Below, in pieces: positions 1 to 17,722 of a stretch of 64,000 nt of DNA. The position numbers and the translations under genes were made by a program. Source of the DNA: Eledone cirrhosa (taxonomy: Eukaryota); the NCBI GenBank assembly GCA_964016885.1, contig OZ024742.1, positions 101,866,001 through 101,930,000 of the forward strand, in the 5' to 3' direction. Within the stretch, counting starts at the first letter, position 1; every line of letters begins with the position of its first letter. The notes beneath the pieces are model-generated. The model was not told where the DNA came from, searched no databases, and saw only the letters and a list, made by a program, of their open reading frames with translations.

Positions 1-538
1 CTCAGTAATAGAGAAGACCCGCCTTACCTAAATACAAAGTAAAAACCTACTACAGTCAGTAGACATCTCTATCAAAACACCCCCCCGTCCCACCACCTCC
101 ACCCCATCCACACCGCCCCTTTCAATGTAAAGTTATGTTGGTGCCACAACATCCAGGCCGAAACAAATGAGATCGTGTAGGTGTCACGACAAAAAAACAC
201 ACAGTCCACGCTGTAAATGTGGCCGTGTAGGCAACACGCTAAAAACCTCCCAGCCCCACACTGTAAATGTGGTTGGTGTTAGGAAGGGCATCCAGCTGTA
301 GAAAACCCGCCAGACAGTCCACGCTGTAATGTGGCCGTGTAGGCAACACGGTAAAAACCTCCCAGCCCCACACTGTAAATGTGGTTGGTGTTAGGAAGGG
401 CATCCAGCTGTAGAAAACCCGCCAGACAGTCCTATGCGAGCAAGACAACCACTCTTGCCTCAAGTGGGAAAACCCCCGTCCAAACCCATGCAAGCGTGGA
501 ACACGGACGCTAAACCCGATGATGATGATGATGATGAT
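1..538 (+). mobile_element. 3' end of RTE-clade LINE (last codons, 3' UTR, (GAT)n tail)
   Basis: Start matches the reverse complement of the ORF end at ~10369-10400 (KTRLT-stop). Same 3' UTR with the CCATGC-AA-GCGTGG hairpin and (GAT)n tail at 518-538. Internal ~113-bp tandem duplication at 201-432. Confidence 0.85.
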
Positions 539-1013: not shown

Positions 1014-1605
1014 TATGTATGAATATATATATGTATGAATATATATATGTATGAATATATATATGTATGAATATATATATGTATGAATATATATATGTAT
1101 GAATATATATATGTATGAATATATATATGTATGAATATATATATGTATGAATATATATATGTATGAATATATATATGTATGAATATATATATGTATGTAT
1201 ATATATATGTATGTATATATATATGTATGAATATATATATGTATATATATATATATGTATGAATATATATATGTATATATATATATATGTATGAATATAT
1301 ATATGTATATATATATATGTATGAATATATATATGTATATATATATATGTATGAATATATATATGTATGAATATATATATGTATATATATATATGTATGA
1401 ATATATATATGTATGAATATATATATGTATATATATATATGTATGAATATATATATGTATATATATATATGTATATATATATATATGTATGAATATATAT
1501 ATTTATATATATATCTGTATGAATATATATATGTATATATGTATGAATATATATATGTATATGTATATATATATGTATATATATGTATATATGTATATAT
1601 ATATA
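539..1605. repeat. Compound (TA)n/TATG/TATGAA microsatellite
   Basis: Directly visible. Confidence 0.97.
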
Positions 1606-1761
1606 TTGTTATACTTTGGGAGGGTCATGTTGCCAATAAGAAACACACGCACCAGTTGCTTTCACTTCAATTTAATTTAATATATATTTATAAATTTACA
1701 AATTTATAAATTTCTGGTTGGTTGGTTGGTTCCACAACCAGATAGTTGTTTATATATATAT

Positions 1762-1806
1762 AGTCATAGTTCTTTCGTCACACACTCTGTGACCTCTTCA
1801 GTGACT
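1762..1806 (-). ncRNA. Minimal type-I hammerhead ribozyme motif in PLE pseudo-LTR
   Basis: Minus strand: AGTCA-CTGAAGA-G-GTCACA(GAGTG)TGTGAC-GAAA-GAAC-TA-TGACT. Stems I and II pair; one extra G follows A9; helix III is minimal. Confidence 0.8.
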
Positions 1807-1852
1807 GGGGATTTCTTTCTTCGTTTCTGTGCCTTTCCTTTCTTCTATCCTA

Positions 1853-1908
1853 CGCCATTTTGTTTGTGTGTGGGTTGCGTGCTCAGTTTGCGCATGCGCC
1901 ACATCCGG
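1853..1908 (-). promoter_or_regulatory. Candidate pseudo-LTR promoter: ETS-like, NRF1-like and YY1-like motifs
   Basis: On the minus strand CCGGATGT (1901-1908), GCGCATGCGCA (1889-1899) and CAAAATGGCG (1853-1862) cluster within 56 bp, just upstream of the HHR. Motif match only. Confidence 0.4.
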
Positions 1909-2103
1909 GTGTCTGTGTGTGTTTGTGTTCATTTTTCTATTTTTCTATTTATATTTGTTTGTTTATTTATTTATTTATTGTTGGTTGGTTGTTTGTTCTA
2001 TGTGTGTGTGTGTTTTCATTTTGTCTTGTGTGTGTTTTCATTTTGTGTGTGTTTTCAATTGTAAGTTGTTTGTTCTATGTGTGTGTGTGTTTTCATTTTG
2101 TCC

Positions 2104-4344
2104 TTAATTGTAAGTTGTGATGTTGCTGTTCCACTCATATTTTCTATTTAATTTTGGTTTTAATTCTTTTATGCTTACTGCCTCTGTAATTTGCCTAAAC
2201 ATTGCGTCTTTCTTGTGTGTGGATTCTATTTTTATTTCTATGCTCTCTAATTTACCCCTGTGTTCTATCTTAGCATGTTGGTAGAGCACAGATGATTCTT
2301 TACTATCTTGGAGGTCTCGCCAGTGTTCATTTATTCGTTCCCCTATACTACGAGCTGTCTCACCTATGTACACTATATTTTTGTTTCTACATTGTCCTTC
2401 AGTACATCTTATGCTATATACTACATTTCTAGTTTTACAGTTAATATGGGGGCTTATTTTACAGGTTATACATTTCTTATCTATACATGAGGGTCTTTGG
2501 AACGGGTATGTCTTGCTAATAAGTGTTTTTACGGAGGTACCAGGTCTTTCTACTATCTTAATATTGAGATTATGTTTCTTTAGGGCCCTTCTAAATTTGT
2601 AGGCTAGTTCGCCTCTAGGGGTTGTATTGATGAACATTACACTCTGGTATTTATTGCTATCATACCATGAGTTTATTCTATTGGCCTTGTTCTTAGTTCT
2701 TTCTATTCTATTCCAAAATTTGCTCCTATACAAGGGGCAGGTCCCATTTATGTCATTATTTACCATTTTTTCCCATTTGGTTCTGGCTCCTTTATACACT
2801 CTGATTCTATCTCTCTGATTGTAGCCAGAGAACTGCATACGGTGGATGAAGTGTTGTATGTGTCTCTCTAGTTCTTCGGGGTTGCACATGCGGGACACAT
2901 TTCTCATCACCCGTACCAAATCCGCAATCAGTATGTTGATTTTGGTATGGTCCGAAATGGCCGAGTTTCGGTGGATCAGATGTTTGGAAGTCATGGGTTT
3001 GGCATAATGGGAATGGAGGATTTGTTTTTGGTTGTTAATAGTATCTAACCAGAGCTCTGTGTCTAGTACAGGTAATCGATGGTTGGGGTGTCTACTTGGG
3101 TAGTCTATAGTAACTCTAATGCTCTGGTGGATGGAGTTTGCTATTTGCTGGATGCTTTCCATTGTGTTTTTCTCTGGTTCCTGACTGTTCTTTAGTGGGG
3201 GTGTCTTAACTACGATGTTTATATCATCTACGTAGCGGGAGTACATTATCAGGGTTAAGCTGTCTTCTAATTGTTCATTAAGTTTTTGTTTAAGTCTACT
3301 GTCCCACCATACCATGAACAAGTTAGCTATGTCGCCTGCAATGCTAACACCAATGGCTGCTCCTTCCTCTTGGGCATATGTTTTACCATTAAATTTGAAC
3401 ATATGTTCCTTAAGGGTTAATTTTATGCTGGCCCCTACCGCATCTGCAATCATTTTCTTCAGTTCATCGTGGTTTTCGGGTGTCCGTATGGCTCTGGTCC
3501 ACCCGTTCCATCTATCTGTGTGGGTTTTCTTGGCCATTGAGGTAATGGTAGGTGGTCTGCCTCTTGCTGGTCTTGTAGGGCACAGGTTGCTAAGGTTATA
3601 AGTGTCTAGGTAACTATTACTATGAGTAAGCTTAAGTAGAAGTCCCAGCTCACTGGTATCAATCCCACGGAACTCAACCTTGCTCTCGCTGATCATTTCG
3701 ACGCATTTCTCCACAGCAAAATCCACGTCAATAGATGGATACAGGGACACAACATCCATACTGCCTATTATGCAGTTTGTTAGGTCCCCAGATCGGTTAC
3801 CCGCGCCGATTCTGCTGAGGAGGTCCTCCGTGCTGTCACACACATCTGGGGACATCTCAATGATGGGGCGTATGATCTGGGAGAGGAAGTAGGACAGTCT
3901 GTAGTTACTAGCAATGTTAGCCCCACAGACTGGCCGTGTTGGTGGTCCCGCGACAGGGTCCCAGCCCGTTTTATGGTCTTTTCGAAGCCCATACAACGCC
4001 GGCACGTCATTGTTCCAGGCCTGGAAGTTGTTGGCAGTCCTTTTGTTGGGCTGCATTATATTTGTCCACATCACCATATGGGCATTGAGGGTTTTTTCTC
4101 TATCCTCATGCTCCTGTGGTGTTACCTCTCTTGTGTTAGTGATGTGGGGTTGCATTGCCTGGATGTAGTTTGGCAGGCTGTCAACCAACATTCTGCCAGA
4201 CTTGTCTGTTGGAAAGCATGCTATCTCTCCATTACGTGAGCGCTGCATGAGCTTACGCAAGCCATTTGCAGATTCTTCTCCCAGTTGCTGGGCCTTTATT
4301 CTATTATGCTTCTTGCTATACTGTTCTATAATATTTCTAAGTTC
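2104..4344 (-). CDS. PLE reverse transcriptase with C-terminal GIY-YIG endonuclease (5'-truncated, ~746 uninterrupted codons)
   Basis: Motifs [44 protein letters not shown], a Cys-rich linker ([10 protein letters not shown]), and VVYSIRC..C..YIGETAR..ERINEH..H. The N-terminal part of the track ORF is microsatellite. Confidence 0.93.
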
Positions 4345-5294: not shown

Positions 5295-5303
5295 TATATA
5301 TAT
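4347..5303. repeat. Compound (TA)n/(TATG)n microsatellite
   Basis: Directly visible. Confidence 0.97.
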
Positions 5304-5535
5304 AAATGTAAGTATGTATGTATACGTACATACATATATGTATACAGACGTACAGTAGCATGCATATATATATACATATATACATACAGGTACACATACA
5401 TATATGCACGCATCAGTTTAGCGGACGCTTATTATAACGCCGCTTTGTTCGTTTGTCAACAAACTGAACAGCCTGAATTTATGCCATACGGTGTTAAGGA
5501 AACCACGTCACCTTTTTGTTCAACACTGACACAGG

Positions 5536-5580
5536 AACGATGTACTAGTTTCAAGCTTGTTAGCTATCATCAGCACCGTT
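5536..5580 (-). ncRNA. Hammerhead ribozyme motif, family A copy 1
   Basis: AACGGTG-CTGATGA-TAGCT(AACA)AGCTT-GAAA-CTAG-TA-CATCGTT on the minus strand. Confidence 0.82.
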
Positions 5581-5868
5581 TACCCACCTGCCAGATAGTT
5601 GAACGTTCGAAAGTATATATTTTCCTTATGAAAATTAACGGCTGAGCAGCCTAATTTGCATATTGAGTGAGTTAAATCGGTCAGGCATACCGAAAACGAT
5701 AAGTTGAAAAAAAAATGAAAACGAAATTTCATTTCTCACTCTTAGTATGGCAGTTACTTAAATGTAAGTATGTATGTATACGTACATACATATATGTATA
5801 CAGACGTACAGTAGCATGCATATATATATATATATATATATACATATATACATACAGGTACACATACA

Positions 5869-5926
5869 CTAGCAACCCGTCTAACCCATGCTAGCGTGGA
5901 AGAACGGACGTAAAACGGTGATGATG
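5869..5926 (+). mobile_element. 58-bp RTE 3' tail insertion into family A unit
   Basis: Matches the RTE end at ~42250-42303. Absent from the other units. Flanked by an ATACA duplication (5864-5868 and 5927-5931). Confidence 0.8.
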
Positions 5927-6065
5927 ATACATATATGCACGCATCAGTTTAGCGGACGCTTATTATAACGCCGCTTTGTTCTTTTGTCAACAAACTGAAC
6001 AGATGAATGTATGCCATATGGTGTTAAGGCAACCACGTCATCTTTTTGTTCAACACTGACACAGG

Positions 6066-6110
6066 AACGATGTACTAGTTTCAAGCTTGTTAGCTATCAT
6101 CAGCACCGTT
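6066..6110 (-). ncRNA. Hammerhead ribozyme motif, family A copy 2
   Basis: Identical to copy 1. Confidence 0.82.
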
Positions 6111-6266
6111 TACCCATCTGCCAGATAGTTGAACGTTCGAAAGTATATATTTTCCTTATGAAAATTTACGGCTGAGCAGCCTAATTTGCATATTGAGTGA
6201 GTTAAATCGGTATAATAAGCGTCCGCTAAACTGATGCGTGCATATATGTATGTGTACCTGTATGTA

Positions 6267-6304
<38 letters not shown>

Positions 6305-6540
6305 TGCTACTGTACGTCTGTATACATATATGTATGTACGTATACATACATACTTACATTAAAGTAAGTGCCATACTAAGAGTGAGAAATGAAATTTCGT
6401 TTTCATTTTTTTTTCAACTTATCGTTTTCGGTATGCCTGACCGATTTAACTCACTCAATATGCATATTAGGCTGCTCAGCCGTTAATTTTCATAAGGAAA
6501 ATATATACTTTCGAACGTTCAACTATCTGGCAGATGGGTA

Positions 6541-6585
6541 AACGGTGCTGATGATAGCTAACAAGCTTGAAACTAGTACATCGTT
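6541..6585 (+). ncRNA. Hammerhead ribozyme motif, family A copy 3
   Basis: AACGGTGCTGATGATAGCTAACAAGCTTGAAACTAGTACATCGTT on the plus strand. Confidence 0.82.
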
Positions 6586-6994
6586 CCTGTGTCAGTGTTG
6601 AACAAAAAGGTGACGTGGTTGCCTTAACACCGTATGGCATAAATTCAGGCTGTTCGGTTTGTTGACAAACAAACAAAGTGGCGTTATAATAAGCGTCCGC
6701 TAAACTGATGCGTGCATATATGTATGTGTACCTATATGTATATATATATATATATGCATGCTACTGTACGTCTGTATACATATATGTATGTACGTATACA
6801 TACATACTTACATTTAAGTAAGTGCCATACTAAGAGTGAGAAATGAAATTTCGTTTTCATTTTTTTTTCAACTTATCGTTTTCGGTATGCCTGACCGATT
6901 TAACTCACTCAATATGTAAATTAGGCTGCTCAGCCGTTAATTTTCATAAGGAAAATATATACTTTCGAACGTTCAACTATCTGGCAGATGGGTA

Positions 6995-7039
6995 AACGGT
7001 GCTGATGATAGCTAACAAGCGTGAAACTAGTACATCGTT
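6995..7039 (+). ncRNA. Hammerhead ribozyme motif, family A copy 4 (stem II substitution)
   Basis: Same motif, with AAGCGT in place of AAGCTT in stem II. Confidence 0.72.
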
Positions 7040-7194
7040 CCTGTGTCAGTGTTGAACAAAAAGGTGACATGGTTGCCTTAACACCGTATGGCATAAATTC
7101 AGGCTGTTCAGTTTGTTGACAAACGAACAAAGCGGCGTTATAATAAGTGTCCGCTAAACTGATGCGTGCATATATGTATGTGTACCTGTATGTA

Positions 7195-7232
<38 letters not shown>

Positions 7233-7373
7233 TGCTACTGTACGTCTGTATGCATATATGTATGTACGTATACATACATACTTACATTTAAGTAAGTGCC
7301 ATACTAAGAGTGAGAAATGAAATTTCGTTTTCATTTTTATTTTCAACTTATTTATATATATATATATATGAAT

Positions 7374-11184: not shown

Positions 11185-16140
<4,956 letters not shown>

Positions 16141-17086
16141 ATAAAAACAAATAACGAAACAAAATTAAACCTCGTTTCGTTTGTAACTCACTTTTGTATG
16201 ACTGACGCTTAAACAATTAAGTTAAAAATGTACATCCACATATGTATACTGAAATACTAGTATGCATATGAATACACACACGTATACATATGTAGATGTA
16301 CCGAGTTTTTCACTGGTCACTTTACTGTGAGTGTCCAGCTATTCTGTATGTAAACACACAGACAAACCGGTTTTTAGAGTCATACTGGTTTTTGAGGAAA
16401 CACCTTTCCTCTATTCTCCAGAAAGCCAGACAAGGAATATTGAACTAGTTTCGATGTTGTTACATCTCATCAGCAATATTTACCTATCTTCCGGCCTCTC
16501 TAGAGAATCGTAAAAGCACATATCGTTATATGCTTTTTTTATGAAAATTAGTAGTGGGCAGACTAATTTGCATAGAGCGTGAGTACGTACCGGTTCAACG
16601 GAGACGATAAAAACAAATAACGAAACGAAATTAAACCTCGTTTCGTTTGTAACTCACTTTTGTATGACTGACGCTTAAACAATTAAGTTAAAAATGTACA
16701 TCCACATATGTATACTGAAATACTAGTATGCATATGAATACACACACGTATACATATGTAGATGTACCGAGTTTTTCACTGGTCACTTTACTGTGAGTGT
16801 CCAGCTATTCTGTATGTAAACACACAGACAAACCGGTTTTTAGAGTCATACTGGTTTTTGAGGAAACACCTTTCCTCTATTCTCCAGAAAGCCAGACAAG
16901 GAATATTGAACTTAATTGTTTAAGCGTCAGTCATACAAAAGTGAGTTACAAACGAAACGAGGTTTAATTTCGTTTCGTTATTTGTTTTTATCGTCTCCGT
17001 TGAACCGGTACGTACTCACGCTCTATGCAAATTAGTCTGCCCACTACTAATTTTCAAAAACCTCGCAAAACTAATTCATCGCCGTT
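16141..17086 (-). mobile_element. Non-coding HHR repeat family B: 466-bp period, ~1.65 units plus 148-bp inverted segment
   Basis: 16141-16442 is repeated at 16607-16908. 16909-17056 is the reverse complement of 16542-16689. Confidence 0.88.
16436..16480 (-). ncRNA. Hammerhead ribozyme motif, family B (canonical minimal type I)
   Basis: AATATTG-CTGATGA-GATGT(AACA)ACATC-GAAA-CTAG-TT-CAATATT: perfect stems I and II and a palindromic helix III. Confidence 0.9.
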
Positions 17087-17095
17087 ATATATATG

Positions 17096-17138
<43 letters not shown>

Positions 17139-17139
17139 G

Positions 17140-17180
<41 letters not shown>

Positions 17181-17182
<2 letters not shown>

Positions 17183-17365
17183 TTTGTTTCTGAATTTGTT
17201 TAGCAAGATTCTTTATCTGAAATCGTGTGTTGAAACCGATATTGTTATACTTTGGGAGGGTCATGTTGCCAATAAGAAACACACGGACCAGTTGCTTTCA
17301 CTTCAACTTATTATATATTTATAAATTTATAAGTTTATAAATCTATAAATTTCTTCCAAAGTATT
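17181..17365 (-). mobile_element. PLE pseudo-LTR/tail fragment (same family as 1606-1710)
   Basis: 17241-17340 matches 1605-1710 and extends ~60 bp beyond that copy's 3' end. Confidence 0.8.
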
Positions 17366-17588: not shown

Positions 17589-17641
17589 GTATATATGTAT
17601 ATACATATATTTATATGTATATATATATATGTATATATATA

Positions 17642-17722
17642 TATTGTTATACTTTGGGAGGGTCATGTTGTCAACACAAGATTTCAGATAAAAAATCTTG
17701 CTAAACAAATTCAGAAACGAAA
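17642..17722. mobile_element. Small inverted PLE tail insertion
   Basis: 17642-17670 equals the PLE 3' end on the minus strand. 17671-17722 is the reverse complement of ~17181-17233. Confidence 0.75.

What the first reader, a model, noticed from the sequence alone, without database searches (positions are those of the whole stretch)
16141..17086. 466-nt hammerhead repeat whose insertion ends at the predicted self-cleavage site (retrozyme-like mobile RNA)
Seen: a non-coding 466-bp period with a canonical minimal HHR on the minus strand, predicted to cut between 16442 and 16443. The second unit stops at the equivalent position (16908/16909, blurred only by a 3-nt AAC microhomology) and switches to a 148-bp inverted copy of 16542-16689. 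Known: PLEs carry minimal type-I HHRs with palindromic helix III, and metazoan non-LTR retrozymes are HHR tandem repeats that yield small circular RNAs. Inferred: the template RNA had a ribozyme-generated 5' end and was copied in trans by a PLE RT, through one uncleaved or religated junction. This would be a genomic footprint of in vivo cleavage.
Basis: partly seen in the sequence, partly recalled or inferred. Interest (0 to 1): 0.88.

Follow-up and report, generated by a model that had tools for sequence, protein, structure and literature searches.

The report
Retrozyme insertion capped by Penelope tail
A 466-base non-coding repeat with a predicted self-cutting hammerhead RNA motif sits at over 2,000 TA-microsatellite sites of this animal genome, mostly as back-to-back arms with two fixed outer ends; this copy's junction at the predicted cut site is likely chance, but its far end is the last 30 bases of a young Penelope-type jumping gene, which likely points to the enzyme that copies it.

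Summary
The repeat, the minus-strand hammerhead and the inverted piece are real. None of 227 inner ends maps to the first base after the cut. A genome-wide junction count gives 14 at the cut against 14 and 5 at two control positions. The 4-nt microhomology here lies upstream of the cut. A twofold excess of ends 1-25 nt downstream remains, matched by an unrelated hairpin. The element is a young non-LTR retrozyme family (at least 2,269 loci) inserted in (TA)n as head-to-head arms whose outer ends fall at two fixed RNA sites, the Penelope 'tail' signature. Both arms share private variants, which fits one RNA, likely a circle. This likely records one break primed on two RNAs and names a candidate helper; a later deletion into a neighbouring copy is not excluded. 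The scan noted the two-arm pattern before on other DNA, not this hybrid. Cleavage, circle and helper are untested.

The parts
16141..16912 (-). Arm A: 1.65 tandem units; RNA-sense 3' end at 16141 (unit position 302, counting from the first base after the cut) abuts (TA)n; 5' end within 16908-16912
16443..16908 (-). One full 466-nt monomer, cut to cut; non-coding, strongly self-paired
16422..16493 (-). Type I hammerhead: core CUGAUGA 16473-16467, helix II 16466-16453, GAAA 16452-16449, palindromic helix III, GUU triplet, predicted cut between 16443 and 16442
16676..16681 (-). Second fixed outer-end site of the family (unit 228-233); not used as an end in this copy
16909..16912 (.). 4-nt microhomology at the inversion junction, upstream of the cut in RNA sense
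16909..17056 (+). Inverted piece, unit 220-367 (reverse complement of 16542-16689)
17054..17085 (+). Terminal tail of a young Neptune-like Penelope element (1217-aa reading frame, e.g. L188), ending at one of that element's own termini; up to 3 nt (17054-17056) shared with the retrozyme piece
11186..16143 (.). Left (TA)n-type microsatellite target
17086..17182 (.). Right (TA)n microsatellite target

Best explanation
This is one insertion of a young, non-coding hammerhead repeat family (a non-LTR retrozyme) whose copies lie in TA microsatellites as two back-to-back arms with fixed outer ends, likely because a Penelope-type endonuclease and reverse transcriptase cut both DNA strands and primed each on the RNA, likely a circle, and whose right end here is the tail of a Neptune-like Penelope element that likely shared the same break. 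Steps: (1) tandem transcripts self-cleave to 466-nt monomers that are ligated into circles (inferred from motif, covariation and known retrozymes); (2) the enzyme cuts (TA)n and primes one DNA end at unit 302 and the other at 228-233 (fixed ends shown, priming inferred from PMC11167929); (3) each cDNA runs through the cut site for 0 to more than 10 laps and stops at scattered places, more often in stems (shown); (4) the two cDNA ends are joined head to head by microhomology, often with small templated fillers (junction pattern shown, repair pathway inferred); (5) in this copy the second DNA end was primed on the autonomous element's own RNA for about 30 nt and joined to arm A through a 148-nt inverted piece, made by a template switch to retrozyme RNA or by fold-back of the arm-A cDNA (inferred). 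The inner junction near the cut is incidental.
For: 2,607 exact hammerhead cores; 2,269 unit-302/(TA)n joints and 1,008 unit-228-233/(TA)n joints, backward controls 0. In loci not chosen by their ends, 93 of 96 resolved outer ends fall at the two sites. Head-to-head pairs with one end of each kind in 94 of 133 loci (79 by BLAST plus one double locus; 14 with a very short second arm). A sister family 62% alike at window 5300-7360 ends at the two homologous sites. A purified PLE protein cuts and extends both strands and starts at two internal RNA sites that define the tail (PMC11167929). Hammerhead: 9 of 16 pairs change on both sides, 96.6% of cells paired, 0 of 500 shuffles as high, on 13 hand-picked variants from three families; H17 is U 334, C 134, G 2 of 470. 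One template: 24 locus-private variants fixed across both arms in 16 loci, A>G 10 against T>C 2 in RNA sense (P 0.02), and only 2 fixed differences between arms in 37 testable loci. Tail: the sequence is the end of a PLE found 2,859 times; of 29 short-tail junctions examined, 20 join an inverted arm of the same PLE, so a 30-nt tail arm is an ordinary product of that element, and here the partner is the retrozyme; no left half of that PLE flanks this site.
Against: No RNA data; cleavage, circle and priming are inferred. The hybrid is 1 of 29 short-tail junctions and 1 of 133 retrozyme loci for this PLE. Four other loci end in other elements, one of them a different PLE with a 77% match to another locus (L106), so the helper is not unique or some joins are later deletions. 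The unit shows no similarity to this PLE's pLTR, and the two end sites are 69-74 nt apart in the retrozyme against 43-58 nt in the PLE. Mean distance between arms (0.0075) is only slightly below that to the nearest other locus (0.0085), smaller or equal in 43 of 71 loci. Several long arrays show higher-order repeats of variants, so some laps arose after insertion or from multimers.
Confidence: 0.6

Rival explanations
1. Same family mechanism, but the PLE tail in this copy is not from the same event: a complete two-arm insertion landed beside an older PLE copy (or a lone tail fragment) and a deletion across the fragile TA tract fused them.
For: TA tracts here hold nested PLE-type insertions. 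Several arms join unrelated flanking DNA directly (L049, L053, L110, L138). Lone tail fragments between TA runs exist (6 of 29). The join sits at a short look-alike stretch of the two sequences.
Against: The fusion would have to stop within about 30 nt of the PLE end and leave no TA; the copy is very young (99% or more alike to its nearest relatives); a short tail arm on an inverted partner is the usual product of this PLE (20 of 29).
Confidence: 0.3
2. The template is a linear multimeric transcript of a homogeneous source array, not a circle; the ribozyme is a passenger for transposition.
For: Hammerhead mutants did not affect insertion by the anole PLE in vitro, and uncut RNA was the main substrate (PMC11167929). 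Higher-order variant patterns in long arrays. No spike at the cut is expected under this model too.
Against: Private variants, with an A>G strand bias, are fixed in every lap of both arms; edits on a linear multimer should differ between units. Ribozyme pairs covary across families.
Confidence: 0.25
3. One reading: this cDNA ran off a ribozyme-cut 5' end, so the junction is a footprint of in vivo cleavage.
For: The junction interval touches the cut. Ends 1-20 nt downstream are about twofold enriched, and 10 ends fall at -3..+5 against 4.2 expected (P 0.01); trimmed cut ends could give this for a few per cent of arms.
Against: 0 of 227 at position 1; 14 against 14 and 5 genome-wide; near-cut junctions in L062, L101 and L102 keep bases upstream of the cut; the upstream 4-nt overlap here would be a 0.006 coincidence; positions 1-31 are also a long stem, and the hairpin bin 251-275 is equally enriched.
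Confidence: 0.1
4. An ordinary solo pLTR or DNA-level satellite of a Penelope element.
For: Retrozymes in frogs are related to pLTRs (10.64898/2026.07.22.740005). Some arrays expanded after insertion. Not every PLE family of this genome was compared with the unit.
Against: Dispersed young loci with their own two fixed ends and no attached reading frame; only L106 joins a PLE frame, at a junction.
Confidence: 0.05

Closest known systems
Metazoan non-LTR retrozymes (Cervera and de la Pena 2020, PMC7229834; Li, Clavereau and Pollet 2026, 10.64898/2026.07.22.740005)
   Same: Non-coding tandem unit with a canonical type I hammerhead, low GC, strongly self-paired, thousands of copies, PLEs in the same genome; PLE mobilisation from a circle is proposed in both papers.
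   Different: 466 nt is above the 170-400 nt of the 2020 paper but inside the 51-972 bp of the preprint. The passages and parts read do not describe head-to-head arms, two fixed ends, (TA)n targeting or a hybrid with a helper. RNA not shown here.
Penelope-like element insertions, Neptune clade (Craig et al. 2021, PMC8557442; Frangieh et al. 2024, PMC11167929)
   Same: Tandem plus inverted 5'-truncated copies, a tail at one end only, microsatellite targets, two internal start sites.
   Different: No reading frame; tail 69-74 nt rather than 30-40; both arms can be multi-lap arrays; the hammerhead is canonical, not the minimal PLE type; no sequence likeness to the candidate helper's pLTR.
Non-autonomous Chlamys elements such as MRC1 (PMC8557442, passage)
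   Same: Non-autonomous PLE riders with multicopy head-to-tail insertions.
   Different: Those resemble their autonomous partner at the 3' end; this unit does not resemble the candidate helper, and it carries a canonical hammerhead.

Membership tests
Non-LTR retrozyme | Type I hammerhead in each unit | tested here: met
Non-LTR retrozyme | Short tandem units, dimers to multimers, dispersed | tested here: met
Non-LTR retrozyme | No protein coded; GC below 45%; no LTR layout | tested here: met
   longest ATG frame 19 aa sense; GC 168 of 466; arrays end in (TA)n
Non-LTR retrozyme | Self-cleavage of the transcript | not testable with these tools
   motif and covariation only
Non-LTR retrozyme | Linear and circular monomer RNA in tissue | not testable with these tools
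   no RNA run was available to lay
Non-LTR retrozyme | Long target-site duplication where present | tested here: inconclusive
   cannot be read in (TA)n flanks
PLE-type insertion | Inverted 5'-truncated copy upstream | tested here: met
PLE-type insertion | Tail at one end only (two start sites) | tested here: met
   tail longer than published
Solo pLTR of an autonomous PLE | Unit is the terminal repeat of a coding element | tested here: not met
   no likeness to the 1217-aa PLE; no tandem frame in 133 loci; other PLE families not compared
Minimal PLE hammerhead (min-HHR) | Long helix II with unpaired 5' base, short helix I | tested here: not met
   helix II 5 bp without bulge, helix I 7 bp or more
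Neptune-clade PLE (candidate helper) | RT, then CX2-5CxxC linker, then C-terminal GIY-YIG endonuclease | tested here: met
   motifs at 830 (YVDD), 1084 (CX4CxxC), 1105-1127 (VVY..YIG); definitions; Pfam gave only a weak RVT_1 hit on a 630-aa piece and none on the full frame
Neptune-clade PLE (candidate helper) | Placement in an RT tree with reference PLEs | not tested
   no reference sequences at hand; Nematis shares the linker

The most novel reading that the evidence does not exclude
A Neptune-type Penelope enzyme pair writes from both ends of one cut in (TA)n at once; usually both halves roll round one edited retrozyme circle from two fixed start sites, but sometimes each half holds a different RNA. 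This locus is such a hybrid and names the enzyme that mobilises an animal retrozyme, a partner so far only guessed from co-occurrence and pLTR kinship.
Probability: 0.35. Interest if true: 0.72.

Novelty: new member of a known kind. Interest (0 to 1): 0.48.

Why it matters
How animal retrozymes get into genomes has been proposed (circle copied by a PLE reverse transcriptase) but, in the papers read, not shown. This family gives exact predicted start sites on the RNA (unit 302 and 228-233), a target ((TA)n) and a candidate enzyme with many intact 1217-aa frames, so the proposal can be tested in vitro with the published PLE assay. It also shows that a junction at a ribozyme cut site is not by itself a footprint of cleavage.

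Tried and rejected
Footprint of cleavage at this junction: rejected by the 227-end hazard test and three genome-wide patterns. In those three I set aside rows that are 1-2 nt indels of the normal context, judged by eye: 7 of 21, 5 of 19, 12 of 17; raw counts (21, 19, 17) give the same answer. RNA evidence: no RNA holder listed; this is no evidence either way. Laying four contig runs confirmed the unit and the PLE tail separately; no listed piece bridged the hybrid junction, which proves nothing. L119 first looked like a second hybrid but is an inverted copy of neighbouring DNA. A systematic terminal-lap change at unit 282 (the one mismatch in this copy): C to T in 8 of 79 arms against T to C in 2; likely CpG decay, not pursued. 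Likeness between unit and helper pLTR: none; Rfam found no hammerhead in that pLTR, though a hammerhead-like core is visible by eye. Distance between arms against nearest locus: weak. A Pfam family search for PLEs did not run; a protein from L093 served instead. Rows dropped before counts: L118 (duplicate of L117), L064, L085, L086 (continuations), one arm of L069 (same as L100); arms under 29 nt were invisible to that step. 80 of the loci were chosen on their 302 end; 20 of the 50 tail loci were hand-picked for non-TA context, and 38 of the 88 hits (this locus among them) were not fetched.

Full report
Observation. The window holds a 466-bp period (16141-16446 equals 16607-16912, one mismatch) followed by an exact 148-bp inverted copy of 16542-16689, all between TA microsatellites. 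The minus strand carries a type I hammerhead (Rfam HH9, 36.5 bits, E 4e-8, under the gathering score) with a predicted cut between 16443 and 16442. By the definitions in PMC4209133 (passages) it is the canonical metazoan type with a short palindromic helix III, not the minimal PLE type. Across 13 hand-picked variants from this family and two related ones, 9 of 16 pairs change on both sides; the rows are related, so this is support, not a probability. The monomer folds far better than shuffles (z -10.2) and codes for nothing. I number the unit from the first base after the cut.

The family. The genome (3.0 Gb, animal; earlier scan notes call it a cephalopod, which I did not test) holds 2,607 exact copies of the ribozyme core. 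I fetched 136 stretches and, after dropping four duplicates or continuations and adding this locus, analysed 133 loci with 230 arms. The typical locus is two arrays head to head, RNA 3' ends pointing outward into (TA)n. Of 224 resolved outer ends, 128 fall at 300-302 and 89 at 223-234. 80 loci were chosen on the 302 end, so the fair count is for the rest: 93 of 96. Genome-wide there are 2,269 joints of 302 with (TA)n and 1,008 of 228-233 with (TA)n under a stricter pattern. 94 of 133 loci have one end of each kind, 14 of them with a second arm of only 10-25 nt. A sister family 62% alike, in this same window at 5300-7360, ends at the two homologous sites. This matches the PLE signature: inverted 5'-truncated copies and a tail at one end (PMC8557442, passages), explained in vitro by cutting and extension of both strands from two internal RNA start sites (PMC11167929, parts 1-2 of 4).

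The cut-site claim. Of 227 uncensored inner ends none maps to position 1; five map to -3..+1 against 2.3 expected. Three of these (L062, L101, L102) keep at least one upstream base that the partner arm cannot supply. Genome-wide patterns that catch junctions in a 3-nt window gave 21 rows at the cut, 19 and 17 at two control positions, or 14, 14 and 5 after setting aside small indels; P 1.0 and 0.064. In this copy the overlap of the two pieces is 4 nt and lies upstream of the cut. Overlaps of 4 nt or more mark 26 of 95 junctions, a chance match has probability 0.006, so the cDNA most likely ran past the cut. Against my reading: ends at 1-20 are enriched (21 against 9.2, P 5.5e-4; in the 80 end-selected loci 9 against 5.2, P 0.085), and the best 25-nt window over all arms starts at 463 (27 against 11.2). 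But 1-31 is the 3' strand of a long stem, and the hairpin bin 251-275 is as enriched (24 against 12.5). A few per cent of arms may come from cut RNA; this junction does not show it.

Template. 98 of 230 arms are long enough to cross the cut site at least twice. In 16 loci, 24 variants private to the locus are fixed in every lap of both arms; in RNA sense 10 are A>G and 2 T>C (P 0.02), as editing of one RNA would give; only 2 fixed differences separate arms in 37 testable loci. The editing lead came from an earlier scan note. This fits one circle copied from two start sites, as PMC7229834 proposes (passages). It does not exclude a linear multimer from a homogeneous source. The plain distance test is weak (43 of 71), and several long arrays carry higher-order repeats.

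The hybrid end. This copy lacks the family's second end. Its inverted piece runs from unit 220 to 367 and then into about 30 nt found in that context once in the genome. [quoted passage not shown] That element has its own fixed ends, and this copy stops at one of them, in the same form as L042, L200 and L201. A pattern for truncated tails gave 88 rows; in 50 fetched loci plus this one, 22 rows were indel variants of the intact tail and one locus gave no row, and of 29 true short-tail junctions 20 join an inverted arm of the same PLE, 6 only TA, 1 a same-sense PLE piece, 1 an unidentified sequence and 1, this locus, the retrozyme (sorted by eye). So the right end is an ordinary short arm of that PLE with a foreign partner. 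No left half of the PLE lies beside the site. Best reading: one break, two RNAs. Against: it is a single case; four other loci end in other elements (L070, L106, L126, L132), one a different PLE; deletions into flanking DNA occur; the unit and this PLE's pLTR share no sequence. I put co-priming at about 2 to 1 over later fusion.

Comparison and novelty. It works like, and by every feature testable here is, a non-LTR retrozyme; cleavage and circular RNA are untested. PLE origin or mobilisation is already argued in 10.64898/2026.07.22.740005 (parts 1-3 of 5 read) from co-occurrence and pLTR kinship. Four literature searches listed no paper whose title or abstract start describes two-armed retrozyme insertions or a retrozyme-PLE hybrid; I read only the five papers named, no supplements, and most subscription papers are not held. 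The scan's own notes report the two-arm pattern many times in this and other genomes, and a word search for a hybrid returned nothing; these notes are not independent support. Interest 0.48.

Noticed in passing
window 5300-7360: Sister retrozyme family, about 454 nt, 62% alike, four hammerheads with a GUA triplet and compensatory changes, head to head, ending at the two homologous sites; a short foreign insertion interrupts one unit.
   Followed up: partly
window 1600-4300 (minus strand): Truncated PLE 72% alike to the 1217-aa family, with a hammerhead-like core of the minimal type near 1801; its ends recur at 17185-17340 and 17640-17722 as small TA-inserted pieces.
   Followed up: partly
L187-L196 (e.g. 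L188:1233-4883): Very young Neptune-like PLE family with intact 1217-aa frames, an Asn-rich insert, tandem and head-to-head copies, and fixed ends 43-58 nt apart inside the start of the frame; 45,006 first-look candidates for its RT region.
   Followed up: partly
L106:1574-2800: Older retrozyme copy whose second arm runs directly into a broken reading frame of a different PLE, in sense orientation.
   Followed up: partly
L070, L126, L132: Second arms that continue directly into other sequences ending in (TA)n; L070 and L132 match other repeated elements, L126 is 28 nt and unidentified.
   Followed up: partly
L031:9523-9594: A third hammerhead family with the same layout and a GC loop in palindromic helix III.
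   Followed up: no
L064-L065, L081, L084-L085, L091, L159: Long arrays (up to 31 units) with higher-order repeats of variants, against fully homogeneous arrays such as L104, L121 and L056.
   Followed up: partly
unit position 274 (window 16635): The commonest single inner end (9 of 227) lies in the loop of the hairpin between the two end sites.
   Followed up: no
runs X4-X6: Three runs under other organism labels hold the unit at 95-99% identity, at low depth in two; not examined further.
   Followed up: no
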